Source: an uncultured Bdellovibrionales bacterium (GTDB lineage: Bacteria; Bdellovibrionota; FAC87; UBA2466). From it: a DNA stretch of 64,000 nucleotides. Below, piece after piece: positions 2,629 to 38,707 of this stretch. Within the stretch, counting starts at the first letter, position 1, and every line of letters starts with the position of its first letter. The position numbers and the translations under genes were made by a program. The stretch lies in assembly GCA_937903155.1 (NCBI GenBank), contig CALCZU010000132.1, positions 18,043 to 82,042 of the forward strand. The letters are read 5' to 3'. Below the pieces are notes generated by a model. The model worked only from the letters and a program-made list of their open reading frames with translations. It was not told the DNA's origin and made no database searches.

Positions 2629-4452
2629 ATGAAATCCCCCGTTTATTTTCTCATCGTTTGCATTTTGATTTTATCTCATTCCCTTCAAGCTTCTGATTTT
2701 AAAGTGGCCGAGAGAGATTCGGGAAATTCTATCGAAGTTTTCGGGACCTTTGATCGCGAAGTGCTCGTGCCGAGCGCCGACCAAAAGTTTGAAATTAAAA
2801 AGAATGGTCTTCTTCAAACCATGGAAGCGGGTCTTCCCTCGGTTCCGGTCAAAACGTTTCTCGTTGCTCTTCCCTCAGGAAGAAATTTTCAAAAAGCAAA
2901 GTTCGAAGTCACGGGGACCAGAGCTTATTCAGGACAAATCGTAACATCAGCCGCCCAAATGCCAATCTCATGGATTGGAAACGCGCCAAAAGATCTCAAA
3001 CACGAAGCAGCTCCGCAATACGATTCCCAGTATCCTGCCCAGAAATATACGGTTTCTAAACAAGTGCTTCATGGTGTGACGGTTCTTGTCGTCAATGTCT
3101 ATCCCATTCGTGAAATCGACCACAAGAGCATCGAAGCCTTCTCTCAATTCAAACTTACGCTTTCAACGTCAAGAAGCTCCGAAGCTCCAGTAAAACTTTT
3201 TTCTCACCAAGCAAAAGAACTGAAGAACCTCGTCAGCAATCCTGAAACAATTTCGGCGTATGCTTCTCGCGAAGAAGCAACAAACGACTACTTAATTTTA
3301 GCAACTCCTAAAGTGATCGGATTTACCGGAGCAAACGGACTCGAGGACCTTCAAAAAAGTCTCACCGAAAAAGGTTTAAAATCCAAAGTCGTTTCGCTTG
3401 CGAAAATCGATGAAGCTGCGGGAACAGACAGAGTCGAAAAAATCCGTAATTTTATCCGTGACGAATACAAAACTACGGGTATCCAGTACGTTTTACTCGT
3501 TGGAAAAAGTGTGAAGTCTTCTTCGGAACCTTTCTTTCCAGCAAGACCGCTTTGGACAAAAATCAAAGCGTATTTCGGATACTGGACAACGCTCGAAGAA
3601 AATATTCCCGCAGATCTCTACTACAGCAATCTCGATGGAACCTTTAACGGCAACGGAAATGACAAGTGGGGGGAAACAACCGATGGCGAAAACGGGGGAG
3701 ATGTCGATTTTCTTCCTGAAGTCACCGTGGGTCGCGTAGTCGTTGAAACTCAAGCCCAACTCCAAAACTTTGTTCGAAAAACTCTCTACACAAAGTCTCA
3801 TAAACTTTCTCAAGAGACAGCGCTTCTCGGAGAAGAACTTTTTAAAGAGTTAAATCTTTACGGCGACGATTACATGAATCAGCTGGTCGGCGAATGCTCA
3901 GACCATAATTTTACAACGACAGGATATTCCAATGATTGGAAATTGACGAAGTTTTACGACAAGGCTTCGAAGTGGTCCGGAAAAGACGCACAAAAGGCGA
4001 TTTCCCAAAATCCTATCAGCATGGTCAATCATTTAGGGCATTCGAATCAATCGACGAATATGAAACTGAGTTCATCGAACATTTCTGCATTTACCAACGC
4101 CAATCCTTTTGTTTACTACACTCAAGGATGCTTGGCCGCGAAGTTCACGGTCGGTTCTTTCGTGGATAAAATGGTTACGGCGACAAATGCTGCGGTCTCT
4201 GCGATCGGAAACTCGTCTTATGGGTTAGCTCCAGAAGATCCAGATCCAAATTCGACCAAAACTCCCGGCGGTTCGCAAATGCTTCACCGTCAATTTATTC
4301 ATTCGATTTTCACAAATCATCTGACTCAGTTGGGAAAAGCCCATCAAGCTTCTAAAGTGGCTTTTGTCGGAATGAAAGACATTCAAGAAGTCCGCTGGAT
4401 CAACTGGACCGCGCATTACTTCGGTGATCCGAGTTTAGAATTGAGTTTCTAG
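2629..4452 (+). CDS. Secreted cysteine peptidase-like protein, possibly peptidase C25 (gingipain) family
   Basis: 607 aa with an N-terminal signal peptide (MKSPVYFLIVCILILSHSLQA). Motifs DLYYSNLDGTFNGNGNDKWGE and a His (NHLGHS) about 33 residues before a Cys (YYTQGCLAAKF) resemble the gingipain His/Cys dyad spacing. Family assignment is tentative. Confidence 0.45.
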   Translation: MKSPVYFLIVCILILSHSLQASDFKVAERDSGNSIEVFGTFDREVLVPSADQKFEIKKNGLLQTMEAGLPSVPVKTFLVALPSGRNFQKAKFEVTGTRAYSGQIVTSAAQMPISWIGNAPKDLKHEAAPQYDSQYPAQKYTVSKQVLHGVTVLVVNVYPIREIDHKSIEAFSQFKLTLSTSRSSEAPVKLFSHQAKELKNLVSNPETISAYASREEATNDYLILATPKVIGFTGANGLEDLQKSLTEKGLKSKVVSLAKIDEAAGTDRVEKIRNFIRDEYKTTGIQYVLLVGKSVKSSSEPFFPARPLWTKIKAYFGYWTTLEENIPADLYYSNLDGTFNGNGNDKWGETTDGENGGDVDFLPEVTVGRVVVETQAQLQNFVRKTLYTKSHKLSQETALLGEELFKELNLYGDDYMNQLVGECSDHNFTTTGYSNDWKLTKFYDKASKWSGKDAQKAISQNPISMVNHLGHSNQSTNMKLSSSNISAFTNANPFVYYTQGCLAAKFTVGSFVDKMVTATNAAVSAIGNSSYGLAPEDPDPNSTKTPGGSQMLHRQFIHSIFTNHLTQLGKAHQASKVAFVGMKDIQEVRWINWTAHYFGDPSLELSF

Positions 4453-25062: not shown

Positions 25063-26289
25063 TTATTTAAGCGAAATCACACGCAGCGTGTTTGTTTGAA
25101 GATTGATTTCACCTGTGGGCGACGTCGAATATTTTTCGTGTCGAATTTCGAATGCTTTTACGAGTTGGCCCGAATCGTAAGTCCGCGTCGAAGAAAACTC
25201 ATGTGTGACGCCAGAGTTTTTCACTTTCCCGCGGAGTCGACTAAACCAAACAGGTTTTCCTAAGACTTCGTCTTCGCGATTCTGCAAAAGAACGCACTCG
25301 CTAAAATTCGGTTTGGGTTTAAAGACCGGAACAATCACGCCCGACGAATCGGAAATGACAGGCGCTACGCCGAGTTTCATTTTGTCGTAAGTTAAATATA
25401 AAACCTCTTCGGATCCTTGAGAACTTCCTTCTTCAATTTTTCGAGTGACTTTGAGGGTGATTGTTTTGTCATTTTGATTTTCAAACTCAAATGTCAGATA
25501 AGCGCGTGCAACATTGTCCTGAATCAGAGGTTCTTCAGTCGTCAACTCAAAGACCACTCGATTGCTCTTGGTCCAACTTAAGGGATTCAGATTCAAGACC
25601 CCCGAATTGAGCCCTGGATAAAAATTGGCGTTCGCGCAATCGAGATCCATAAGATTCAATTCTTCCACTTTGCGTTGATACTCTGCTTGATCCATGTAAT
25701 CGGCATGCCGAGAACTCATGAGTCCAACGTAGATGCGAGACAGAATCGAATTTTTTTGTCCTAACTGAGTCGCATCGTAATAAACAATCTCATGCAGAAT
25801 CAATGCGGCTCGACTGTCGTCAGTCAGAAGACTGTTATCCCAAAGATCTTTATTCACGAGATAAATTCGGTCTTCCGGAACGCGCTTTGTTCTCCGCGCA
25901 GCGAGTTGCTCGATGGTGCAACCGGGCTCTAGAGGTACAAAACCGAAATCGTCTGTACTGGGAATAATGACTTTCTCGGTGAAGGTCACGTTGTTGAAAA
26001 AATCATTCGCTTTGATTCGATAGCGACGCGCTCGGACCGGATCGAACCTCTCGATTCGGGCGAGCAGAATTTCGAGCTTTGAATAAATCGACAGTTCTTT
26101 TCCGCCAATCTCGACGTCGAGACTTCGGAATCTATTTTCAAATAAATCCAAAAGTTCAATCGATTTAACCTGCTGAGAAGAGTCTCGACAAACCACGATA
26201 CCGCCACCGCTCCCGCGGTCATTTCCGGCAAAAGTTGAACCTGCGAAAACTCCGAACCAGAATAGAATTCCAATAAATCGACTTGTCAT
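25063..26289 (-). CDS. Hypothetical secreted protein
   Basis: 408 aa with a signal peptide (MTSRFIGILFWFGVFAGSTFA). No motif recognised. It overlaps the upstream gene by 4 bp. Confidence 0.4.
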   Translation of the reverse strand: MTSRFIGILFWFGVFAGSTFAGNDRGSGGGIVVCRDSSQQVKSIELLDLFENRFRSLDVEIGGKELSIYSKLEILLARIERFDPVRARRYRIKANDFFNNVTFTEKVIIPSTDDFGFVPLEPGCTIEQLAARRTKRVPEDRIYLVNKDLWDNSLLTDDSRAALILHEIVYYDATQLGQKNSILSRIYVGLMSSRHADYMDQAEYQRKVEELNLMDLDCANANFYPGLNSGVLNLNPLSWTKSNRVVFELTTEEPLIQDNVARAYLTFEFENQNDKTITLKVTRKIEEGSSQGSEEVLYLTYDKMKLGVAPVISDSSGVIVPVFKPKPNFSECVLLQNREDEVLGKPVWFSRLRGKVKNSGVTHEFSSTRTYDSGQLVKAFEIRHEKYSTSPTGEINLQTNTLRVISLK

Positions 26290-27107
26290 CTTTCGGTCCC
26301 TCTTAAATCAGAGACGGGAATGAGTTGTACATTTAAGTTGTACACTTCGGTCCGTTCTCCAGTTTCTAGAACTCTTGCCAAGTATCTTCGAAAGTTTTGT
26401 ATGAGCTCTTTTGCGATTTGAATCTTTTTAGGATCAATCGCCATCGTGATTGAAGTTATATCAGAATCCTTTACGGAGACTTCGTCAAGCGCCGAGATCG
26501 CCTGTTCTAAGCTTTGTCGATGCGATTCTCTTAGCGCAGCGCAAGGAGTATTACTCGTCGTGGCAACCCCATTTTGTGCTGGACGTAACTTTTTACCTTC
26601 GCTCACAATAAAACCCATTCGGATCAGTCTATCGACGGCTTCTTTCACTTCGCGAACCGTAATCTTAAGTCGAGACGCCATCCATTTCGGATCATTTTTA
26701 AAATCATCGGTTTCGATCAGACTGAGAAGCGCAAAATGATACCAGTCCGCAACGATAGCGAACTGATCGAACGAAATCTGTTTGTAGTCCGAATGGTGCT
26801 TTCCTAAATTTTCTCCTTCTTTAATCACGGTTGCGGAATCTTCTTGCTCGACAATCAAAGAGAGAAACGCTTTTTTCTCTTCTTCGGAAAATCCCAATCT
26901 ATCGGCGATACGGATCCCCATTTTTGTGGTGAGGGTTCGTTTGCGCGCAATGATTTCAGAAAGCGGACCGGCCGGAACTTGCAAATTACGAGCGAATGCG
27001 CGCAGCGAATAGGAATGATTGCGATTACGGCGTGTTTGAAACTCTTTGGTGAGCCACGAGATGGGATCTTTTTCCCGTCGATGATTTTCGTTTTCGTGTT
27101 GGGACAT
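26286..27107 (-). CDS. HTH-containing protein, resembles TIGR02147 paralogous family
   Basis: 273 aa. The N-terminal block HSYSLRAFARNLQVPAGPLSEIIARKR is a helix-turn-helix-like segment. Family recall is from memory and not verified. Confidence 0.4.
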   Translation of the reverse strand: MSQHENENHRREKDPISWLTKEFQTRRNRNHSYSLRAFARNLQVPAGPLSEIIARKRTLTTKMGIRIADRLGFSEEEKKAFLSLIVEQEDSATVIKEGENLGKHHSDYKQISFDQFAIVADWYHFALLSLIETDDFKNDPKWMASRLKITVREVKEAVDRLIRMGFIVSEGKKLRPAQNGVATTSNTPCAALRESHRQSLEQAISALDEVSVKDSDITSITMAIDPKKIQIAKELIQNFRRYLARVLETGERTEVYNLNVQLIPVSDLRGTER

Positions 27108-28160: not shown

Positions 28161-29255
28161 ATGCCTATCAGAGCATTTCTCTTCCTCGCCCTTACCTTTT
28201 CCATTTCACTACAGGCGACCCCCTGGGGTTATTGCAAAAGAGTTTTTCATACGATGACTCGGGGGCGGTTCCAAACGAAGATAGGTTTTTCAGAAAGATC
28301 TGAACGGTGGCTTGGGTCGGGGACCCATCCGTTAGACGTAGTCTTCTATCGCGCTTATGACGGCTATCGGGAAGTCTTTGAAGACGTTTATAAAAATGAG
28401 GTAGATGCCCTCACAAAAGACGACCTCTATATCGATGTGGGATGCGGATTGGGACTCGCCCCCCTCGAAGTGGCAAAGAAAAACGTGAATACCGTCGGGA
28501 TCACTCATATCGATTATTGGAAAGAAGTGGAAAAGCTTAAAAAACTTGGGCCCGCGGATCTGGATTTTCAAATGACTGATGGAGACACAAGAAAAACTCT
28601 CGTTACTCGTATCGGCGACGTCTCTCTGCATTCGATCTACTCGCTTAATAAATTAGTAAAGGGTCCTCTCGAGGCGAATTATTATGTAAACGGCACTCAG
28701 GAAATTGTAGCGCCGAAATCAGGAGGAGTTTACAGCCCCGGTGCCACCGCAAAAGCCATCCATACCTTAGCAGACAAGGTGGCCGAACTGAAACGGAATG
28801 CCCCTGCAGAGTTTAGGTTGACTGTGGGTGACACTCGCACTGAGCTCGCAAAGCACGCCGGAAAAGCGAAGTTAATTTCTGACCTTTATGGTGATTACCA
28901 ATACGACTTCGATCCGGCATCTTTAATCTCCGCCTATGGCAGTGCACTTGCACCCAATGGAAAAGCACTCGTGTTAGCGCAGGCGCGAACCGCTTGGGAG
29001 GGTTTAAAAGGCGGACCTTCGGTCAAAACAAAGACGGGAGACCAAATCTCCCTACATGAATATCTCGCAAGCAAGTACCCGCAAAATTTTTCAACAGAAA
29101 CAATCGATATCATGGGTGGGTTTAAAACCATCCTCACCCTTAAAAAAGGCGCGGACGGAAAGTTTCCTGAGTTCAATCTTAAAAAGGTCTCAAGCTCGAA
29201 GCCGAAAGACACCCTCTACGATACTTCCCGCTACATCCTCTACGAAGAAGGCTAA
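28161..29255 (+). CDS. Hypothetical protein with N-terminal leader and class-I SAM-methyltransferase-like glycine motif
   Basis: 364 aa. The leader is MPIRAFLFLALTFSISLQA. LYIDVGCGLGLAPLEVAKK resembles MTase motif I. A TATAAT hexamer lies 8 to 13 bp upstream of the ATG. Confidence 0.35.
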   Translation: MPIRAFLFLALTFSISLQATPWGYCKRVFHTMTRGRFQTKIGFSERSERWLGSGTHPLDVVFYRAYDGYREVFEDVYKNEVDALTKDDLYIDVGCGLGLAPLEVAKKNVNTVGITHIDYWKEVEKLKKLGPADLDFQMTDGDTRKTLVTRIGDVSLHSIYSLNKLVKGPLEANYYVNGTQEIVAPKSGGVYSPGATAKAIHTLADKVAELKRNAPAEFRLTVGDTRTELAKHAGKAKLISDLYGDYQYDFDPASLISAYGSALAPNGKALVLAQARTAWEGLKGGPSVKTKTGDQISLHEYLASKYPQNFSTETIDIMGGFKTILTLKKGADGKFPEFNLKKVSSSKPKDTLYDTSRYILYEEG

Positions 29256-29269
29256 AAGATCCGGCCTCC

Positions 29270-32200
29270 CTATTTTTTAAACGGAGCTAAGAGAGGTTCG
29301 TAGTCATTGGATTCGCTGAAACGGGTGTCTGGGAGTGCGATTCCTTTTAGGTTTGCGTAGAGTTCGATGACTCGGACGATTTGATTTGCGCTGTGGGGTG
29401 ACTTTGCATCGATTGCGTTTGTGAGAAGTTCTTTAGAGGGAGGAGCGTTGCCGAAAATGAGTTGCATTCGTTCATCCCACTTTGTTTGTTGTTCTGGAGA
29501 AAGGGCGGCTCTCATTCCTGAGGTCACGAGTGCAAAATCATCCTGGGCTTTGAATACGGTTTTGATTTCTTGAAGAAGATTCCTGTATCTTCCGTAAGTT
29601 TCTGGCGTAATCCAATTCTTTCGGAGAAACGCTTTATAAAGGATATCGGCTCTCTTTTCTCCGAGTTTTTTCCCACCGACACCGAGATCAAAACCTTTGA
29701 GCTGAGCGTAGTAGTCGAGCATTTCTATGATCTGAATCGAGGTCGGTTGGTCGGCGACAGAATTTGATTTAAAAATGTCTTTTATCTTGAGATCCCACTG
29801 GTCGCCGACAGAATCATCGAGCGAGTTCCTTAGTTCCGCTAAATAGTTTGAAAAATCATCTGATTTGAAAGTTTTTTGTAACCGCTCTAAAAATGGAATG
29901 TATTCAGGGAATAGATTTCGCTTGATAGGAGACGCTGCCTTCCTCGGAGCTTCTACTACGGGCACCGCAGGGAGGTCTGGTTCTAAATCTGGTTTGAAGG
30001 ACTTTAGGAAAGTCGTAAATTTTTTAGCATCTTTAAAATCCTCTTTCGAAAGCGGGGAACCTCTCAATTGGGAATAAAATTCCATTAGAGTTAGAATGCG
30101 ATTCGCATGATTTGCATTCTGATGAAAAAGAGTCGTTGTGAGTAAAGCGGGTGGCGGCCCGCTGGCAAAAATACGATCAATCTCTTGATCGAGTTTAACG
30201 AGATCTTCTTTTTGAAGATAACTTTTCATGCCTGCAATCACCTTGCTAAACTGATTACTCGCAGTGAAAGTTTTTTGTAGAGTCTCTAAAAAAGGACGGT
30301 ATTCGTGGAAGTTTTCGCTGGTAACGACTTGTTCTACGATCCCAAAAGAGTGAAAAAGCTTGAGGAATGTTTTTGGTTTTTCCAGATCTCCCGCAGTAAC
30401 GGAAAGGCCTTTTAATTTTGCATAAAGAAGGGCCAGCTTTACAAGTTTATTAGCCTTCGGAGTCGACCGATCTCTAACCATTCCTGTGAAGAAACTCTTC
30501 GAGGGTTTCTTTTTTTCAAAAATCTCAAGGACGCCCTCATCCCATTCCTCGTGCGTTGAAAGATCCAGATCCTTTTTAAAGGCCGTAGTTACCTTTAAAA
30601 AATTGTCACCTGGTTCAAACGTTTCTCCTAATTGTTCTAGAAATGGAATATACGCGGAAAAATTTTCAGAATGGACGGGCGTTGAGTCAGCAACTCCATA
30701 CTGATCCAAGAATTCATCCAGCTTATTCGGTTTTCTGAGCTCAGATGGGCTCAGTCGAAGTCCCTTCAATCGTGCGACTTCTGCAAGAAATCTTAAGACT
30801 TTATCGGCATTCGCGTCGGATTTGCTATAGATCGTGGTATTTAGAATAAAATTCGAAGGACCCGAAGGGCCAAAAATTTCTTTTGTTTTTAAATAATAAA
30901 CTATTTGCTCGGAAGGAGAAAGCTGGTCTCTGAAATGGGAAATCACTTTCGAGAAGTCGACTTGCGCTTTCAGATTATCCGATAGTTTTTTGATCAAAGG
31001 CAAAAAGGTATCAAAATTGGATTTTGTGACAATCGCTTCTTTCGACCCCAAAGTTTTTAGGAATTTATTGTACTCTTTTGTTTGATGTAGATTGTCCGGC
31101 GAGACTTTGACCCCGGCAAGCTTTCCGTAAAGCTCGAGGACTTTCAATATCCTGTCTGCATGGTTCAATGACTTCCTCTGGAGTAGAGTCGTGAAAAGGA
31201 CAGGTAGTGGGCCGTTTTCGCCGAAAATTTCTTTAATTCCCTTCTCCCAGTTTTCATGTAGTCCGGGACCAATGTTTTTTTTGAGGGCCTCGAGAAATCT
31301 ACTAAAATCTACGGATGCTTTAAACAGAGTCTGAAGTTTTTTGAAAAACTTTAGATAACCTTCAATATTATCCGGATTCGCATATCCGCCTTCTTTCGAA
31401 GGCGCGTTCCAAAAATCGATCCGCCCTGCCTCACGAATCAATGCGATATAGTCTTCTAGAGCAATCACAGGATGATGATCTTCTTTTTTCCGTTTAGACT
31501 TCCCTGCAGTGCCTTTTCGTTCGATATCGTCCATACGCTTTGCAAGCGCTTCGTGATCCAGAGATTGAGCTAAGTAAATTTCCACATCTCGCTTGCCAGG
31601 CGCGGTTCTGACTACGCGCCCAAATCTCTGAGTGAGCGAGAAAGGATTGGGATCGTCCCGCAGATCGACGAGACACGAGGCTATCGGAAGATCGACGGCT
31701 TCATTCAGTCTATCGACAGAAACTAAAACATGAATTTCACCTTTATTATACCGTTCTAAAATCTCTGTGACTGGAGTGACAACGAGTTGCCCGTCTTTGT
31801 TTTCGACATAGCCTTCATAATCCGAAGTGTAGACAGCGACTTTTCTACCGTGGGGAGTGAGTTGTCTTGAGAGATATTCGGTCAACCTCAGCGCTTCTTT
31901 TTGGGAGTTGACTGAAAACAGACTTGGACGGCTCAAAAGAGAATCGCGAGTTTGCTCGAATAAAGAAGCATAGTGCTGGTCGAGAAGCTCTGCTCTTTGT
32001 CCGCGGTCGACTGGAGTATAAATCGGATCTCCTTCTTTCAGTGCGAAAACCAAAGGTCGCACTTTCTCAAAGCCTACTAAGTCGCCATTTGCAAAGGCCG
32101 CCTCAAGTTGCTTCATCACGTCGCCCGGAGAGCGATCCGCAGCTCCCCGCTTCTCTAACCATGCTTCAGGCGTATCGAGGTAAGTGTAAAACCCTCGGCC

Positions 32201-33346
32201 TCCCGCCATTCTTTGAACACGGCTATCCGGGGTGGCCGTGATCAAAAGGGCCGAAGCTTCGGGATTCTCTTTTAAAGTTTCATCAAAAATTTTTCCGATT
32301 TGTAATGCGCCTGCATGGTGAGCTTCATCGTAGATCCAGTATTTTAAAATGGATCTTAAGTGTTGGACATTTTTGGGATCTGGCAAAAATTCAGGTTCTT
32401 CATTTTCGTTCGTAACCTTTTCTCCTTTAATTCGCGAACGTAATGAGGATGCAGTGGTGACAAGAATCACGGGCTCGTTCCCGCTCTCAACAAGTGCTTC
32501 AAGCTCTTCAAAAGTCTTTGCATCGGCGTTGCGTTTTCCACCGTCTCCCCATTCAACCAGCTTGATTCCGATAGGAGGTTCTCCCTCAATTCCACTTTGA
32601 ATTTTTTTTACCTCTTTTGTCAGTTGGGAGACGGTATTTGTTTGATCGCTTAGGACGATATATAAACCCTTCCCTTTTGTCTTAAGACGGTCTCGTAAAA
32701 GGGCACGAACGATTTCGGATTTTCCCGTGCCCGTTGGGGATACCGCGAGAAAAACCTGGTCCTCTGCATTTTTATCTTTATCAAATTTTTTAAGAAGCGT
32801 TTGTCCGAGGTCAATCACTTCATTTTGAATCTCGCGGTGAACGAGTGCAGGTTCCCCCAAAGCTTTTCGCTCTGCCTGATGAGGTCCATTGGGATCCACG
32901 AGAAAAGGATAGAGTGGATGACCTAAAAATGTATTTCGAATCAGCCCCGTTCGATTAGGGAATTTACTCCAATCAAACTCGTGAGGAATTTCTAACGTTC
33001 TAAGTTTCGCATCGATGTTGACCATGCGAGGAGTAGTAACTCCCTCTACAAATCGAATCTCAACCGCAAATCCCTCTGGCGAAGTACTTCTCAAATGCCC
33101 TTCAGAAGTTCGCTCCCACCTCGGAGTTTTTTTCGATCCCACAATGGCTCTTCCACCTAATTCCGGAAGCAGGTTTTCAAGAAACCGAACTTCATCGGCA
33201 CTCATCGCCAGCCGCTTTTTTTGAAGCGCAAACTCCGCAAAAACTTTCGCACAAGGGGTAGAAAAAAGCGGCTGGCGCGCGTTGCCCACAGAACAGGCAA
33301 AAAGAAGCCCTAAAATGAAAACAAAATTTAAAATGGGGTGAGACAC
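29270..33346 (-). CDS. Large SF2 helicase (ResIII/DEAH-like core) with signal-peptide-like leader and ~6 C-terminal ~125-aa tandem repeats
   Basis: 1358 aa with GTG start at 33346. Walker A is AVSPTGTGKSEIV and the DEAH box is IYDEAHHAG. Motif III ITATP and motif VI QRFGRVVR are also present. The C-terminal half has repeated units matching [FY]IPFLE-x-L-x-TF...FSKV...W...IFG...ANxxL...LYAKLKG. An alternative start is at MSADEVRF, about 46 codons in. Confidence 0.7.
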   Translation of the reverse strand: MSHPILNFVFILGLLFACSVGNARQPLFSTPCAKVFAEFALQKKRLAMSADEVRFLENLLPELGGRAIVGSKKTPRWERTSEGHLRSTSPEGFAVEIRFVEGVTTPRMVNIDAKLRTLEIPHEFDWSKFPNRTGLIRNTFLGHPLYPFLVDPNGPHQAERKALGEPALVHREIQNEVIDLGQTLLKKFDKDKNAEDQVFLAVSPTGTGKSEIVRALLRDRLKTKGKGLYIVLSDQTNTVSQLTKEVKKIQSGIEGEPPIGIKLVEWGDGGKRNADAKTFEELEALVESGNEPVILVTTASSLRSRIKGEKVTNENEEPEFLPDPKNVQHLRSILKYWIYDEAHHAGALQIGKIFDETLKENPEASALLITATPDSRVQRMAGGRGFYTYLDTPEAWLEKRGAADRSPGDVMKQLEAAFANGDLVGFEKVRPLVFALKEGDPIYTPVDRGQRAELLDQHYASLFEQTRDSLLSRPSLFSVNSQKEALRLTEYLSRQLTPHGRKVAVYTSDYEGYVENKDGQLVVTPVTEILERYNKGEIHVLVSVDRLNEAVDLPIASCLVDLRDDPNPFSLTQRFGRVVRTAPGKRDVEIYLAQSLDHEALAKRMDDIERKGTAGKSKRKKEDHHPVIALEDYIALIREAGRIDFWNAPSKEGGYANPDNIEGYLKFFKKLQTLFKASVDFSRFLEALKKNIGPGLHENWEKGIKEIFGENGPLPVLFTTLLQRKSLNHADRILKVLELYGKLAGVKVSPDNLHQTKEYNKFLKTLGSKEAIVTKSNFDTFLPLIKKLSDNLKAQVDFSKVISHFRDQLSPSEQIVYYLKTKEIFGPSGPSNFILNTTIYSKSDANADKVLRFLAEVARLKGLRLSPSELRKPNKLDEFLDQYGVADSTPVHSENFSAYIPFLEQLGETFEPGDNFLKVTTAFKKDLDLSTHEEWDEGVLEIFEKKKPSKSFFTGMVRDRSTPKANKLVKLALLYAKLKGLSVTAGDLEKPKTFLKLFHSFGIVEQVVTSENFHEYRPFLETLQKTFTASNQFSKVIAGMKSYLQKEDLVKLDQEIDRIFASGPPPALLTTTLFHQNANHANRILTLMEFYSQLRGSPLSKEDFKDAKKFTTFLKSFKPDLEPDLPAVPVVEAPRKAASPIKRNLFPEYIPFLERLQKTFKSDDFSNYLAELRNSLDDSVGDQWDLKIKDIFKSNSVADQPTSIQIIEMLDYYAQLKGFDLGVGGKKLGEKRADILYKAFLRKNWITPETYGRYRNLLQEIKTVFKAQDDFALVTSGMRAALSPEQQTKWDERMQLIFGNAPPSKELLTNAIDAKSPHSANQIVRVIELYANLKGIALPDTRFSESNDYEPLLAPFKK

Positions 33347-33511: not shown

Positions 33512-33937
33512 TTACGGTTGGAATGCGTTTTTTCTGGCGGGAAGATTTCTGACGTCGGGAAGGTCTTTGGAAAGAGAAATCGCTTTGGCACTTGCCCATT
33601 GCTTAGGGGCAGGAAGGTTTTTCATCCCCGCATCCATACTCGGAGGGGCCGTGCCCATGACTCCTTGAGGAATTTCAAAACCGGGAGCTGTAGGAAAGTG
33701 CATTCCTAAATTCTGATCGGGACCGGCAATATTTCTTCCTGGAAAGGAGTTCGCTTTAACTACGTGAGGATCCATCGGAGGAGGCAACTCTTTACCGACT
33801 TGGGGAAGAGGAATCTGTGGCAAAGCTGGAGACGAACTAATCTCTCGAATGCTTTTCTTAGAGAAGTGTTTTTTTACTTCAAGCCCCGTGACTACGACGA
33901 GCAAAATCACGACGGTGTATTTGATATTCGCGCTCAT
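33512..33937 (-). CDS. Small membrane-anchored proline-rich protein
   Basis: 141 aa with an N-terminal TM (VVILLVVVTGL) and a Pro-rich C-terminal half. It overlaps the upstream pilin-like gene by 1 bp, which suggests co-translation. Confidence 0.3.
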   Translation of the reverse strand: MSANIKYTVVILLVVVTGLEVKKHFSKKSIREISSSPALPQIPLPQVGKELPPPMDPHVVKANSFPGRNIAGPDQNLGMHFPTAPGFEIPQGVMGTAPPSMDAGMKNLPAPKQWASAKAISLSKDLPDVRNLPARKNAFQP

Positions 33938-35157
33938 TAATAGGTCTTCTTGTGAAACGTGATTTTAGCTTTGACGTAAGGATGCACTAAAAGACTGACT
34001 CGATAGGGGTCCGTGTAAGGCACGTTAATTGGCTTCACCGGGTTCGGGCAGTACTGATGGGTGTAATTGAATACATAAGCCCATTGGTAGGGCTGCAAGA
34101 CCGTCATCTGTCGACCATCGCCGAGGGCAAACCAGTTATAATATGGCCACGCAATTTGGCCCGTTAACCCAGTCCAGGTGTTATTGCTCAGAGAAGGTTG
34201 CTCCAAAAACATATCGGCCGTAAACGTCGTCACGTAATCGTAATACGTTTTGTGCTGCATATTAAATGAGATCGTACAGCCCAATTCTCCACCGCAAATA
34301 TCTTTAATGTCGATGTTCTCCACGCAACCCCAAGTACTTAAGTCCGGCGGGATAATGTCGTAGCTGACAGGGTACTCAGAAGTTTCCGAGAAACACCCCG
34401 CGACTTCTCTTGTTTGTGAATCGGCTAAAAGACCGACAAAGAAATCTTTCGAGTAAACTTTTCGATTCATGAGATCGGATTTTGAGGAAGCTTCCAAATG
34501 CACCTTCGCAACGTACTTATCTAAATTTTGATTGTTGCGAGTGTCTTTTCCCGCGTTAGACAAACTATCGATTTGAAGTCGGTTGATTCGAAGCGTTCCA
34601 CTCGCATATTCCCCTAACGCGGCGACGGTCGAAACTCCTGTCGTCACTACGGTTGAAGACGATTGACCACTGACTGCCGTCGGAGAACGGTTATCCATCG
34701 TGCCTGAACCTTGGCTCGCACCGCCTGAACCGTCTGCGGAAGAAGGCACAGAATCCCCACTCCCCACGGTGCTCGAACGATTTTCTACGGAAAGGGTTGT
34801 ATTTTTAAGAGCGTCTGGAATCACTTCCTGAAGCGTTGTCACAGCCATCGCCCCTGGTAACTGAATCGCGCTGATGGCAAGTGGGAGTTTATTCAATTCG
34901 ACTTTTAAAGGGAGGCCATTGTTCGCCATGCGCAATGTCTGACCGCAGGTCGTAGGATTTGATAAAACGAGCTGCATTCCCATCACTAAATTTTGAAAAT
35001 CTGATTTTGAATCAATTGCAGTTTGTGACTTAAACATCGAACCTAAAAGCTGAGAATGATAAACCCCGACCAGTGCAATGAGCGAAGATGCAAGTAACAC
35101 TTCTACTAACGTAAATCCTTTTTGATTTTTGCGAATCTTCATTTTGATTTTACCCAT
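33937..35157 (-). CDS. Prepilin-type N-terminal cleavage/methylation domain protein (large type IV pilin-like / pseudopilin-like)
   Basis: The N-terminus ...KNQKG|FTLVEVLLASSLIALVGV is the class-III leader peptide motif G-F-T-L-[IV]-E. 406 aa is larger than major pilins. The likely true start is MKIRKNQKG at 35142. Confidence 0.6.
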   Translation of the reverse strand: MGKIKMKIRKNQKGFTLVEVLLASSLIALVGVYHSQLLGSMFKSQTAIDSKSDFQNLVMGMQLVLSNPTTCGQTLRMANNGLPLKVELNKLPLAISAIQLPGAMAVTTLQEVIPDALKNTTLSVENRSSTVGSGDSVPSSADGSGGASQGSGTMDNRSPTAVSGQSSSTVVTTGVSTVAALGEYASGTLRINRLQIDSLSNAGKDTRNNQNLDKYVAKVHLEASSKSDLMNRKVYSKDFFVGLLADSQTREVAGCFSETSEYPVSYDIIPPDLSTWGCVENIDIKDICGGELGCTISFNMQHKTYYDYVTTFTADMFLEQPSLSNNTWTGLTGQIAWPYYNWFALGDGRQMTVLQPYQWAYVFNYTHQYCPNPVKPINVPYTDPYRVSLLVHPYVKAKITFHKKTY

Positions 35158-35326
35158 GTATAGTTATCGGCTGATTCTATAGATTAGCTGATATGAAGAA
35201 GGCTTCTCAACTGTAACGTTTTAGTCATTTTTTGTGCCTAGAATTATGTCCGTTCAGACACAATGTAAAAAAGTCCCTATCTCCATTCGAAGATAGGGAC
35301 TTTAAGAGCTATTATACGGATCCGGA

Positions 35327-37444
35327 TTACCAGCGCGGACGGGGAATCGGTGGTGGTTTAGTCGGTACCGACGGCAAAGAAATGGGCGGCTTCGGCAACG
35401 GTGGCAAGATACTGCCTGGATTCGGAATAGGAATCGACGGAACCCAGGAACGAATGCGCGCTTCCAAGTTCGCGGCCTCTCGCGAAAGTTGATTAAAGAG
35501 ATCTGTTAAACGACTCAAATCTTTCGACAGGTTTCCATAATCGGTGACAAAGTTGTTGATCTGAGGCCCCAACAGCAAGAGTCTATTTGCTAGAACGTCG
35601 ATAGAGTTTTTTAGTCGCGCTTCTTCTGCCCCGAGACTTCCAAGCCGCGTGCGAAGGTTTTGCAAAACCTGACTTGCACCATCGAAAGCGACGGCCGCTT
35701 GATTCGACACGACTTCTGCAGCATCGAGCTTTGCCTTCAGCGAGATAAGCGTTTCTGTGAGTCCTTGCGTCTTCGAACGAATACTTGCAAGGGATGTCTT
35801 CGTTGCTGCCTGGAGCAGATCCATCGCACCGATTCGAAATGAAGAACTCTGATTTTTGTACCAATCATTGAGTGCTGTCGCCGCGTCTTCAAGACGTCCC
35901 CAGCTTTGCTGGTGGAGGATATCTACGGTCACATTGACGGCCATGCGATTGAGATCGAACTCAAACTGAGTCACTGTCGCTTTTCCTTCATTTCCTTGCG
36001 CGAGGTACACAAGCCGTTGTTCTAAAACTTGAGCGGCTCTCGTTCCTTTTAAGTCAATGATGGGATTTCCTTCTTGATAACGGCTCATCATCTCACTCGA
36101 GTTGACTCCGATAGAGGTCATCATCTTTGCGGTGTTGAGTTGTCCCGCGATACTGGCCGCGACAACCGCGTAGTCAAACCCGCCGAGAAGTTTTTGCACG
36201 TTTCTCGATGCATTTCCTAGGAGTCTTTGAGAGGCGATTTTAAAAAGTCTCTCGGTTTGACCTTGAACTTCTGCTCTCGAATCGAAATTTTGAATTCGAT
36301 CCCGGAAGCTTGTCGCACGAGTGCTTCCCAATCCACCTTTCAACCCAAAGGCCAAGTGACTCGACGGGAGCGTCGCACTCATACCAGAAGGAATTTTTAA
36401 ATTGGGCAAGAACATCGTAGGAATATTTGTCATCCAACTGCTTTTGGTTTTGTAAATGCAGTCGACGCCTTCTGCTTGAACAGCGAACTGGACTCCGATA
36501 TCTAAAGGACAAGCTTCTCCTAAGATGGAACTTAAGGCACAAGTTGCCGCATTTTCGAGATCCTGCTGTCCACTTTGGAGGATAAAGGCGACGACATCGT
36601 TGAACTCAAGCAGCAGTTGGTCTTGAGCTTCTCGCAAGGATTGCTCAACACTTTTTCCGGCAGTCGCAATTCCTAAAGCAATGTGGTGGGCGCCTGTTTC
36701 AACACTCGCCCAGTCGACAAAGCGTTCCGAAGCGTAATAGCTGTGGGCAGCGCCGGATTGAGCGTAAAATCGATCGCGTGCAGTTCGGTACTTCGTTTCG
36801 TGTTGTAATTGCTGAAAAGCCGCAGAACTAAAAAGAAACTCGACGGGATTCACTCGTGGGATGGCGAGCGTTCCACTCAACCAGCTCTCAATTTTCTTAG
36901 AGTCGAGCGTGATTCCGTTTCCTAAATTCACTTCGCCGAAGAAAGTTCCTGCTTTGAAATTGTAAGAGAGTTTAGCCTCGGTATTTAGCGAATAGGCGAG
37001 AATTTTTTGGTTCAGGTTAAAATCAAGAAGGGCTTGATACTGTTTTCCATACTCCAGAAGTTGATCCGAAAGAGCGGCTCTCTGTGCGATCAGACTGTTG
37101 ACGGCAGCTTTACTGGCATTCAGCCTTTCTTGGAGAGGGGCAGCGGCCGATTGCGCCTGGGCAACTTGCTGGTTTACCGCAACGACAAGACCCTGAACAT
37201 TATTTAAGTTCGCCGTTTCATTTGCGATTTGTTGATTAATCGAATTGAATGCGGCACGGGCATTCGCAAGGTCCCTATCGACCACGCCGATTCGAGCGCT
37301 CACAGCGTCCATCTCTCTTTTGACTCCATCTCTTCGGCCGGCAACATTGCTTAATTGGTTTTTAAGATCGGTGAGCGGATCTGCAGTCAGGGTCAGTGCA
37401 AATAAAAAAAGTCCTAATAGGACCTTCCAGTTTCTACCATTCAT
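35327..37444 (-). CDS. Secreted coiled-coil protein with proline-rich C-terminus
   Basis: About 706 aa from MNGRNWKVLLGLFLFALTLTA, which is a signal peptide. Long heptad-like stretches rich in A/Q/L/N sit in the N-terminal third. The C-terminus is PIPNPGSILPPLPKPPISLPSVPTKPPPIPRPRW. Confidence 0.45.
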   Translation of the reverse strand: MNGRNWKVLLGLFLFALTLTADPLTDLKNQLSNVAGRRDGVKREMDAVSARIGVVDRDLANARAAFNSINQQIANETANLNNVQGLVVAVNQQVAQAQSAAAPLQERLNASKAAVNSLIAQRAALSDQLLEYGKQYQALLDFNLNQKILAYSLNTEAKLSYNFKAGTFFGEVNLGNGITLDSKKIESWLSGTLAIPRVNPVEFLFSSAAFQQLQHETKYRTARDRFYAQSGAAHSYYASERFVDWASVETGAHHIALGIATAGKSVEQSLREAQDQLLLEFNDVVAFILQSGQQDLENAATCALSSILGEACPLDIGVQFAVQAEGVDCIYKTKSSWMTNIPTMFLPNLKIPSGMSATLPSSHLAFGLKGGLGSTRATSFRDRIQNFDSRAEVQGQTERLFKIASQRLLGNASRNVQKLLGGFDYAVVAASIAGQLNTAKMMTSIGVNSSEMMSRYQEGNPIIDLKGTRAAQVLEQRLVYLAQGNEGKATVTQFEFDLNRMAVNVTVDILHQQSWGRLEDAATALNDWYKNQSSSFRIGAMDLLQAATKTSLASIRSKTQGLTETLISLKAKLDAAEVVSNQAAVAFDGASQVLQNLRTRLGSLGAEEARLKNSIDVLANRLLLLGPQINNFVTDYGNLSKDLSRLTDLFNQLSREAANLEARIRSWVPSIPIPNPGSILPPLPKPPISLPSVPTKPPPIPRPRW

Positions 37445-37653
37445 TTCAGCGTACATCCTAGTTCCTCTCTGGTTTTTTGATTTCACAACTTTTACTAAGA
37501 GCAAATCAGATGCCAGCGCCAAAACCTTTTTTTCGTGCGTAAAAGCGATTTGAAAATGCATTTTGCAAAACCCAAAATTAAAAAATTACTTGAGTGGGGA
37601 CAGATTGGCCCTGAGCAGCATTCATTTGTGTAAGAGGGAATTTCGCAATATGC

Positions 37654-38196: not shown

Positions 38197-38707
38197 ATGG
38201 TTCTTTCGGATCTTTCTATTCGTCGTCCCGTCTTTGCTTGGATGCTCATGCTGGGACTGATCGCTTTCGGCGGCTTATCCTTTCTCCGCCTAGGCGTGAG
38301 CCAGCTCCCCGACGTCGATTTTCCAGTGATTTCCGTTTCTGTCCATCTCGAAGGCGCACCGCCCGAAGTGATGGAGCAAGATGTAGTGGACGTTCTCGAA
38401 GATAAACTCATGAGTATTGAAGGCGTTCGGGCGGTGAGTTCTTCTTCCAAAAGTAGCTTTGCAACCATCAAAGTGGAATTCTATTTAAGTCGCAAAATCG
38501 ATATCGCACTTCAGGACGTTCAGGCCAAAACTGACGGGAGAATCACTTAACATCTACAGTATGATCGGTCTGATTCTTCTCATGGGTATTGCGAAGAAAA
38601 ATTCCATTCTTCTTGTCGACTTCACAAATCAAACTCGAGAGTCTGAAGGAAAAAACATCATCGATGCACTCTTGCATGCCTGCCTTATCCGGCTTCAGCC
38701 GATTTGA
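38197..38707 (+). pseudogene. Remnant of an RND (AcrB/HAE1-type) efflux transporter gene with a large internal deletion
   Basis: The first 117 codons encode a typical RND N-terminus (MVLSDLSIRRPVFAWMLMLGLIAFG...VISVSVHLEGAPPEVMEQDVV) and then hit a stop. From 38552, in a different frame, about 52 codons encode the extreme RND C-terminus (IYSMIGLILLMGIAKKNSILLVDFTNQTRESEGKNIIDALLHACLIRLQPI*). Roughly 900 codons in between are missing. Confidence 0.6.

What the first reader, a model, noticed from the sequence alone, without database searches (positions are those of the whole stretch)
29270..33346. 1358-aa SF2 helicase with signal-peptide-like leader and six C-terminal ~125-aa tandem repeats
The N-terminal 600 aa carry a complete SF2 core: Walker A AVSPTGTGKSEIV, DEAH box IYDEAHHAG, motif III ITATP and motif VI QRFGRVVR. 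The C-terminal ~750 aa consist of about six divergent repeats. Each has the pattern [FY]IPFLExL...F...FSKV...W...IFG...ANxxL...LYAKLKG. I do not recognise this repeat as any named domain. The annotated GTG start gives a textbook Sec signal peptide (MSHPILNFVFILGLLFACSVGNA). An exported ATP-dependent helicase would be unusual because the periplasm lacks ATP. Two readings would fit. One is delivery into another cell's cytoplasm, as with the predatory effector proteins expected in a Bdellovibrio-like organism. The other is a mis-called start. The gene is co-oriented with a pilin-like/coiled-coil operon immediately upstream, and the whole block lies just downstream of tRNA-Val.
Basis: partly seen in the sequence, partly recalled or inferred. 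Interest (0 to 1): 0.65.

Follow-up and report, generated by a model that had tools for sequence, protein, structure and literature searches.

The report
Signal-peptide-bearing helicase family of predatory bacteria
This gene encodes an apparently intact ATP-driven helicase that, like about a hundred undescribed relatives traced so far only to Bdellovibrio-type bacteria, starts with an export signal, so the motor probably works outside the cell that makes it.

Summary
ORF 29270..33346 (-) encodes 1358 aa. It has a hydrophobic leader (aa 1-23), a family-specific N-domain (24-172), a complete SF2/ResIII core (173-~600) and six tandem ~116-aa helical repeats (659-1358).

Relatives settle the start-site question. 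Only three close homologues exist, but a full HMMER scan found a wider family: 112 of 185 retrieved proteins carry the N-domain. In 39 of the 42 with a complete N-domain, a signal-peptide-like leader precedes it. The hydrophobic core has a median of 12 aa, and the N-flank is more positive than the C-flank in 66 of 70 leaders. An almost invariant Cys follows about 12 aa later. Family proteins are cysteine-poor (0.29% against 1.29% in other SF2 hits). All ATPase motifs are invariant. The stretch between the leader and Met48 is conserved, so the internal ATG is not the start.

The two named genomes are Bdellovibrionota MAGs. There are no conserved neighbours, so the pilin/coiled-coil "operon" is not supported. 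The repeat and the N-domain match no Pfam family or solved structure. One relative carries Pfam HA (DNA-binding) repeats instead.

Best reading: a Sec-exported DNA motor, plausibly prey-directed. Export is well supported. The target compartment is inferred. No literature on this was found.

The parts
29270..33346 (-). Whole gene, 1358 codons plus stop, GTG start
   Evidence: Identical protein P0001 is in public data.
33278..33346 (-). Leader, aa 1-23 (MSHPILNFVFILGLLFACSVGNA). Hydrophobic core aa 8-20. Candidate SPase I site GNA|R. Lipobox-like LLFA|C18.
   Evidence: Strongest hydrophobic segment of the protein. Leaders of the same build occur in 39 of 42 relatives with a complete N-domain. 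The n-region lacks K/R. No SD upstream.
32831..33277 (-). Family-specific N-domain, aa 24-172. It holds the near-invariant C32 and the GHxL(H/Y)P motif (aa 142-147).
33203..33205 (-).
   Evidence: Residues 25-47 upstream of it are conserved in the homologues.
31427..32830 (-). SF2 helicase core with linker, aa 173-640 (Q174, Walker A, DEAH, TATP, QRxGR), ending in the conserved AGRxDFW motif (aa 640-646)
   Evidence: Pfam ResIII, DEAD and Helicase_C. Motif residues invariant in 37 family members. Weak PDB sequence match to XPB/Rad25 HD2.
32717..32740 (-). Walker A, SPTGTGKS (aa 203-210)
32318..32329 (-). Motif II, DEAH (aa 340-343)
31607..31630 (-). Motif VI, QRFGRVVR (aa 573-580)
31025..31372 (-). 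Repeat 1 (aa 659-774)
30671..31018 (-). Repeat 2 (aa 777-892)
30320..30667 (-). Repeat 3 (aa 894-1009). This unit was modelled: seven helices, pLDDT 80.
29972..30319 (-). Repeat 4 (aa 1010-1125), followed by a Pro-rich linker
29606..29911 (-). Repeat 5 (aa 1146-1247), the most divergent unit, with an internal deletion
29273..29602 (-). Repeat 6 (aa 1249-1358)

Best explanation
The gene is real and starts at or near the GTG at 33346.

Architecture. It belongs to a family of large proteins (about 800-1300 aa) that I could not find described. All share this order: Sec-type signal peptide, a family-specific ~150-aa N-domain opening with a near-invariant Cys, an SF2 (ResIII/XPB-like) ATPase core with every catalytic motif intact, and a lineage-variable C-terminal array of tandem alpha-helical repeats. 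The window clade has 3-6 copies of a ~116-aa, seven-helix unit.

Proposed mechanism:
1. The protein is exported through Sec and the leader is removed. This is shown only at the level of sequence statistics.
2. It leaves the producer's cytoplasm for good. This is inferred.
3. It works as an ATP-driven translocase or helicase on DNA in a compartment that holds NTPs. For a Bdellovibrionota organism, the obvious candidate is the cytoplasm of a prey cell or the bdelloplast. This is inferred.
4. The C-terminal repeat array serves as the nucleic-acid- or partner-binding module. This is inferred from position, because one relative carries DNA-binding HA repeats in the same place.

My confidence by step: real gene with the leader translated, about 0.9. 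Exported, about 0.75. Acts on DNA, about 0.5. Acts inside prey, about 0.35.
For: Start and leader:
- Residues 25-52 are conserved in the three close homologues. All three have their own non-homologous n/h/c leaders.
- Among 185 retrieved proteins, 112 match an HMM of the N-domain. Of the 42 matched from the domain's first positions, 39 have an SP-like leader, and the domain begins at median residue 28.5.
- In 70 leaders the hydrophobic core has median length 12 (IQR 10-15). That is too short for a membrane anchor.
- N-flank charge exceeds C-flank charge in 66 of 70 leaders, which predicts N-in, C-out.
- Ordinary ResIII helicases retrieved in the same searches start with 'MxLRPYQ' and have no leader.
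- Named genomes show the same layout: L003 (Bdellovibrionota MAG) starts MRERRPVLFLIFLLWVSLAQA|GIDAKRC; L004 (Pseudobdellovibrionaceae MAG) does likewise.

Independent sign of an extracytoplasmic life:
- Family proteins hold a median of 0.29% Cys, against 1.29% in the comparison SF2 hits (Mann-Whitney p = 2e-15).
- They have 1-7 Cys per ~1000 aa, mostly 1-4. One Cys is invariant in 36 of 37.

Active ATPase:
- Q174, G208, K209, D340, E341, T370, T372, P373, Q573, G576 and R577 are invariant in 37 sequences sharing only 17-46% identity with the window protein.

DNA as substrate:
- The best Pfam families are ResIII and, in relatives, SWI2_SNF2.
- Relative P0077 (= L004) has Pfam HA repeats above the gathering score in the C-terminal position.
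- An NMR study of that domain is titled as indicating DNA binding (Mills et al. 2013, seen only as a reference-list title in PMC12191111).

Stand-alone gene:
- No neighbour is shared with the window across seven loci.
Against: - No signal-peptide predictor was available. The leader calls rest on my own hydrophobicity and charge heuristics.
- The window protein is the weakest case of its family: no K/R in the n-region, no SD before the GTG, and a second in-frame GTG at codon 20 that would remove the leader.
- The periplasm holds no ATP, and no route from the predator's periplasm into prey cytoplasm is known for any protein (my own knowledge).
The window's own organism was not identified.
- The repeat array is not markedly basic (pI 9.06, net +11 over 704 aa; pI 6.1 in P0004). 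It shows no profile similarity to HA repeats.
- No experimental data exist for any member.
Confidence: 0.45

Rival explanations
1. Exported but kept in the producer's own envelope. It would sit in the periplasm, as a lipoprotein, or on the surface. There it would handle extracellular or incoming DNA, for example fragments of prey DNA on their way in, or biofilm eDNA. It would use external ATP leaking from the prey, or act without turnover.
For: Same export evidence as the main explanation. The window protein's leader contains LLFA|C18, which fits the core of the PROSITE lipobox pattern. A few relatives have FAC at the end of the h-region. A pseudopilin-like gene lies upstream.
Against: The lipobox is absent from the three closest homologues and from most of the family. 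Invariant ATPase residues argue for regular NTP turnover, which the periplasm cannot support. The pilin-like neighbour is not conserved.
Confidence: 0.25
2. A cytoplasmic helicase tethered to the inner membrane by an uncleaved N-terminal helix, with the motor facing the cytoplasm. One example would be a restriction-like or repair motor working at the membrane.
For: This would remove the ATP paradox. The window protein itself has no positive charge before the hydrophobic core and has Arg24 after it. There are local PADLOC and NCBIfam matches to defence helicases (PbeA 5e-12, dnd_restrict_1 1e-9).
Against: Family-wide, the core is too short (median 12 aa). The charge bias points the other way in 66 of 70 leaders. 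Small residues at -3/-1 follow the core in the leaders read by eye. Cys depletion fits an oxidising compartment. The defence-family matches cover only the generic HD2 domain (about 60-100 aa). No partner genes are present.
Confidence: 0.1
3. An ordinary cytoplasmic helicase. On this view the leader is an artefact of taking the longest ORF, and translation starts at GTG codon 20 or ATG codon 48.
For: There is no SD before GTG 33346, and two in-frame alternatives lie downstream.
Against: Neither alternative has an SD either. ATG48 would cut off conserved residues. Leaders with n/h/c build recur in 39 of 42 complete relatives called by different pipelines. In L001 the ATG that precedes the leader is the only ATG there.
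Confidence: 0.07

Closest known systems
ResIII-type SF2 helicases and translocases (Pfam PF04851; motors of Type III and Type ISP restriction enzymes, XPB/Rad25)
   Same: RecA-like HD1 and HD2 with the Q motif, Walker A, DEAH, TAT and QRxGR. ResIII is the best-scoring Pfam family. The only PDB sequence matches are to XPB/Rad25 HD2.
   Different: No methyltransferase partner and no recognisable nuclease domain. It has an N-terminal export signal, a private N-domain and C-terminal tandem repeats. PDB matches are marginal (E 0.0035-0.008 over 65 aa).
Helicases with C-terminal HA (helicase-associated, PF03457) repeats
   Same: An SF2 core followed by a tandem array of small all-helical modules. 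One member of this very family (P0077/L004) has HA repeats above the Pfam cut-off.
   Different: The window's unit is ~116 aa with seven predicted helices. It gives no Pfam HA hit and no profile similarity to HA-like repeats (hhalign probability 0.15%).
Sec-exported nucleases of Bdellovibrio bacteriovorus (Bd1244, Bd1934, Bd0934, Bd3507)
   Same: Nucleic-acid enzymes of a predator that carry export signals and are proposed to act on prey nucleic acids (PMC2797640, PMC3593177).
   Different: Those are cofactor-independent hydrolases. This is an NTP-dependent motor, with no sequence relationship to them.
Bd1370 / BMS_2214 'RNA helicase' of the predatory core genome
   Same: A helicase gene up-regulated 30 min into predation. 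It is among 15 predator-specific orthologues shared by Bdellovibrio and Bacteriovorax (PMC2797640; PMC3526173).
   Different: I could not obtain its sequence, so any relationship to this family is untested. It is a lead only.

Membership tests
SF2 helicase superfamily | Motifs Q, I (GxGKS/T), II (DExH), III (TAT/SAT) and VI (QRxGR) in order on two RecA-like domains | tested here: met
   Q174, SPTGTGKS 203-210, DEAH 340-343, TATP 370-373, QRFGR 573-577. Invariant in 37 relatives.
Pfam ResIII (PF04851) with Helicase_C (PF00271) | Score above the Pfam gathering cut-off | tested here: met
   ResIII 44.3 bits (cut-off 22.5). Helicase_C 32.0 bits (cut-off 23.5).
Type III restriction enzyme, Res subunit | Adjacent Mod methyltransferase gene and a PD-(D/E)xK nuclease domain on the same protein | tested here: not met
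   No methyltransferase family in the neighbours. No nuclease family on the protein.
XPB/Rad25 | Full-length similarity including the damage-recognition domain, RED motif and thumb | tested here: not met
Known anti-phage defence helicases (PADLOC; NCBIfam dnd_restrict_1, PLD anti-phage) | Full-length match at the curated score, with partner genes | tested here: not met
   Matches cover only ~60-100 aa of HD2. NCBIfam scores 37.5 against a cut-off of 600, and 20.2 against 1100.
Sec (SPase I) signal peptide | Positive n-region, 7-15-aa hydrophobic core, small residues at -3/-1 | tested here: inconclusive
   Window protein: core of 13 aa and G-N-A before Arg24, but no K/R in the n-region. Family: n-region charge and core length fit, with median core 12 and N-flank more positive in 66 of 70 leaders; small -3/-1 residues were read by eye, not counted. 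SignalP or DeepTMHMM could not be run.
Bacterial lipoprotein (SPase II) | Lipobox [LVI][ASTVI][GAS]C at the end of the h-region, conserved among orthologues | tested here: inconclusive
   LLFA|C18 fits the looser PROSITE core but has Phe at -2 and no K/R in the first seven residues. It is absent from P0002-P0004.
Tat signal peptide | S/T-R-R-x-F-L-K motif | tested here: not met
   No RR in the window leader. Only a few relatives have RR, and none has the full motif.
HA domain repeats (PF03457) | Pfam match, or profile similarity to HA repeats | tested here: not met
   No HA hit for any of 15 repeat units at E<=10. hhalign against HA-like repeats of P0077, P0007 and P0019 gives probability 0.15%.

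The most novel reading that the evidence does not exclude
Bdellovibrionota make a whole family of ATP-driven DNA motors that are secreted and work inside the prey cell. There they would use the prey's own ATP to unwind, strip or feed the prey chromosome to the predator's secreted nucleases. The rapidly diversifying C-terminal repeat arrays would act as target-binding modules. To my knowledge these would be the first helicases shown to act as exported effectors.
Probability: 0.3. Interest if true: 0.85.

Novelty: new variant of a known kind. Interest (0 to 1): 0.68.

Why it matters
To my knowledge, helicases are treated as strictly intracellular enzymes because they need NTPs. Full-text searches for 'secreted helicase', 'periplasmic helicase', 'exported helicase' and 'extracellular helicase' returned no paper.

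A conserved family of intact SF2 motors behind export signals, concentrated in obligate bacterial predators, has two possible meanings. One is a new class of prey-directed effector. That would bear on the long-standing question of how Bdellovibrio dismantles the prey nucleoid in an orderly way. The other is a source of usable NTP outside the predator's cytoplasm. Either way, it gives concrete, testable candidates: about a hundred sequence clusters.

It also adds two uncharacterised domains. The N-domain models with high confidence but has no relative among solved structures. The other is the ~116-aa helical repeat.

Tried and rejected
- Self-BLASTP of the protein found no repeats. A diagonal scan and HMMs did.
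- Two genome-contig scans. The first, with the four-protein alignment, found nothing, not even the window's own genome.
- Scans of viral contigs and metagenome contigs gave no family member, only generic helicases.
- Two profile searches of the 5.8-billion-protein index failed to recover known family members and added nothing.
- The listing of cluster members gave no organism names. The look-up of encoding contigs does not hold the window's own record.
- The afdb50 fold library was unavailable, so UniProt-named relatives such as B. bacteriovorus HD100 proteins could not be identified.
- Hypothesis that the 116-aa repeat is a diverged HA domain: rejected.
- Hypothesis of a genomic island at tRNA-Val: no composition signal.
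- Hypothesis of an operon with the pilin-like and coiled-coil genes: no conservation.
- Hypothesis of a defence system: only local HD2 matches.
- Literature searches found no description of exported helicases or of this family.
Full report
**1. What is in the sequence**

The minus-strand ORF 29270..33346 is intact, opens with GTG and encodes 1358 aa. An in-frame TAG lies ten codons upstream, and none of the nine codons between it and the GTG is ATG, GTG or TTG. The longest possible protein therefore starts MSHPILNFVFILGLLFACSVGNARQ.

Pfam places ResIII (aa 173-374, 44.3 bits), DEAD and Helicase_C (aa 524-581) on the protein. NCBIfam, PADLOC and PDB sequence searches add only local matches to the second RecA domain: dnd_restrict_1, PbeA and XPB/Rad25. 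This is a divergent ResIII/XPB-like SF2 core, not a member of any curated full-length family.

**2. The repeats**

- A BLOSUM62 diagonal scan gives off-diagonal 30-aa windows scoring up to 79, at offsets that are multiples of ~117. The maximum in shuffled sequence is 41.
- I aligned fifteen units from the four closest proteins (alignment A2). The consensus is F.PL...L..TF.AS..FS.V..A.R..LP......W...L..IF....P...LL...........A........LYA.L.G...P...
- An HMM built only from the non-window units finds exactly six units in the window protein, at 20.7-89.3 bits. The best of 200 shuffles scores 8.7 bits.
- Copy number varies: 6 in the window, 5 in P0002, 3 in P0004.
- Units within the window protein share only 24-30% identity with the reference unit. 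Units 1 and 3 of P0004 are clearly much closer to each other (sequences). So the array is old but still changing.
- A unit models as seven helices (pLDDT 80, pTM 0.73).

**3. The start site and the leader**

Only three close homologues exist among 5.8 billion clustered proteins (37-46% identity). All three begin with their own hydrophobic leader, unrelated in sequence. A conserved block follows: PLF..PCA ... RL.LSADE. Residues upstream of Met48 are therefore coding, and the internal ATG is not the start.

A full HMMER scan of 1.84 billion representatives, using aa 1-1200 as query, returned 174 hits at E <= 1e-3 and 33 at E <= 1e-30. Most of the better hits align from about query residue 20-50 to 600-650. 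That span is the N-domain plus the helicase core. It defines a wider family.

- Of the 42 matched from the domain's first positions, 39 have an SP-like leader. The domain begins at median residue 28.5.
- In 70 leaders the hydrophobic core has a median of 12 residues (IQR 10-15). The N-flank is more positive than the 15-residue C-flank in 66.
- These are the features of cleavable Sec signal peptides, not of membrane anchors or reverse anchors.
- Ordinary ResIII helicases retrieved in the same searches start 'MxLRPYQ' with no leader.

Two further observations fit an extracytoplasmic protein.

- The family is strongly cysteine-depleted: median 0.29% against 1.29% in the comparison set of other SF2 hits, p = 2e-15. 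The comparison set probably contains a few distant family members.
- One Cys (C32) is invariant in 36 of 37 aligned members. The next Cys lies a median of 12 aa after the hydrophobic core.

The window protein is the weakest example of its own family. It has no K/R before the core, no SD, and a GTG at codon 20. It also has an LLFA|C18 motif that could be a lipobox, which its relatives lack. I therefore rate the family trait as solid, and the exact processing of this particular protein as open.

**4. The ATPase is intact**

In 37 sequences that share only 17-46% identity with the window protein, these residues are invariant: Q174 (Q motif, adenine recognition), G208, K209, D340, E341, T370, T372, P373, Q573, G576 and R577. 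This is the pattern of an enzyme that still binds and hydrolyses ATP.

**5. The N-domain**

- Residues 24-182 model with pLDDT 92.4. The order is two helices, a four-stranded sheet, then three helices.
- A profile of the domain hits nothing in the PDB.
- I note this as a lead for a nuclease test, and no more.

**6. The C-terminal arrays across the family**

- Members differ in what follows the helicase.
- P0005 and P0006 carry ~110-116-aa repeats. The P0006 repeats align in register with the window's unit by hhalign (E 7e-5 over 90 columns). The P0005 link is weaker (E 7.5e-4 over 51 columns).
- P0077, which is the protein of the Pseudobdellovibrionaceae locus L004, carries repeats that pass Pfam's cut-off for the HA domain (32.7 against 28.4 bits).
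- An NMR study of the HA domain is titled as indicating DNA binding (Mills et al. 2013). I saw it only as a title in the reference list of PMC12191111.
- The window's repeat is not an HA domain, but it occupies the same position.
- Its charge is only mildly basic.
- DNA binding by the window's array is therefore an inference from position.

**7. Context**

- No ORF near the window gene has a counterpart near any of six related genes.
- The upstream 406-aa ORF has a prepilin N-methylation motif, and the 744-aa ORF is coiled-coil.
- A 15-bp hairpin followed by a T-run on the minus strand (35303..35270) follows the coiled-coil gene.
- G+C is flat across 20-45 kb.
- The gene appears to stand alone. 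The tRNA-Val 1.2 kb away has no visible bearing on it.
- Family members were found in a Bdellovibrionota MAG and a Pseudobdellovibrionaceae MAG.
- The window's own organism could not be identified with the tools.

**8. Mechanism**

Shown by sequence statistics: a Sec-type leader, an intact ATPase, a private N-domain and a variable helical array.

Inferred: the protein leaves the cytoplasm. Because the periplasm lacks ATP (established knowledge), it must work where NTPs are available. For a predator that lives in or on other bacteria, that place is the prey cytoplasm or the bdelloplast.

Bdellovibrio is already proposed to export nucleases against prey nucleic acids. A helicase gene (Bd1370) is up-regulated 30 min into predation and belongs to the small predator-specific core (PMC2797640, PMC3526173, PMC3593177). 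I could not test whether Bd1370 belongs to this family.

Rivals are:
- retention in the predator's envelope (0.25);
- a cytoplasm-facing membrane tether (0.1);
- a start-site artefact (0.07).

**9. Novelty and verdict**

Five full-text searches found no description of exported helicases or of this family. The core is a known kind of enzyme. The export signal, the N-domain and the repeat are new. I rate it a new variant of a known kind, interest 0.68.

Its 'mis-called start' reading is rejected. Its 'delivered into another cell' reading is the best available hypothesis but is untested. Its operon and tRNA context does not hold up.

Noticed in passing
window 28161..29255 (+): The convergent neighbour encodes a 364-aa protein with its own SP-like leader (MPIRAFLFLALTFSISLQA) and a Cys five residues after it. 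It also has a DVGCGLG stretch that gives only marginal PDB matches to SAM-dependent methyltransferases (E 0.03-1). It could be a second exported enzyme of a normally cytoplasmic type. No Pfam hit.
   Followed up: partly
window 33937..35157 (-): A 406-aa protein with a prepilin-type N-terminal methylation motif (KGFTLVE; Pfam N_methyl, 27 bits). It has a long Ser/Thr-rich region and a C-terminal part with no family match. That is unusually large for a pilin or pseudopilin.
   Followed up: partly
window 35327..37561 (-) and 35270..35303: A 744-aa coiled-coil protein with an N-terminal hydrophobic segment and a Pro-rich C-terminus. A 15-bp perfect hairpin plus T-run (terminator-like) follows it.
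   Followed up: partly
window 33512..33937 (-): A 141-aa Pro-rich protein with an N-terminal hydrophobic helix. Its ATG start codon overlaps the last base of the pilin-like gene's stop codon (33937). No family match.
   Followed up: no
window 26286..27107 (-): A DUF4423 protein (Pfam E 9e-48). As I recall, this is a paralogous family known from Fibrobacter and abundant in Bdellovibrio-type genomes.
   Followed up: no
window 38197..38550 (+): The 117-aa ORF begins like the N-terminus of an RND (AcrB-type) efflux pump (MVLSDLSIRRPVFAWMLMLGLIAFGG...) but stops after 117 codons. It may be a truncated or frameshifted pump gene.
   Followed up: no
L007 328..2832 and 2839..3567: The closest homologue, P0003 (834 aa), is not cut by the contig end. 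Its ORF stops inside repeat 2, and the next ORF carries further repeat units. This points to a frameshift, a stop mutation or an assembly error.
   Followed up: partly
P0042 (350 aa), P0111 (138 aa), P0136 (145 aa): Proteins made only of the ~116-aa repeat, with no helicase part. P0042 has three units and starts with Met. These may be gene fragments, or the repeat may exist as a stand-alone protein.
   Followed up: no
L006 4260..6293: In one family locus (P0013), a UvrD-type helicase gene follows immediately on the same strand. This was not seen at the other loci.
   Followed up: no
family N-domains, alignment A3 columns 140 and 147: About 40% of family members have an extra Cys pair (CxxxxC to Cx7C) some 50 aa after the invariant Cys. 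The window clade lacks it. It may be a disulfide or a metal site in part of the family.
   Followed up: partly
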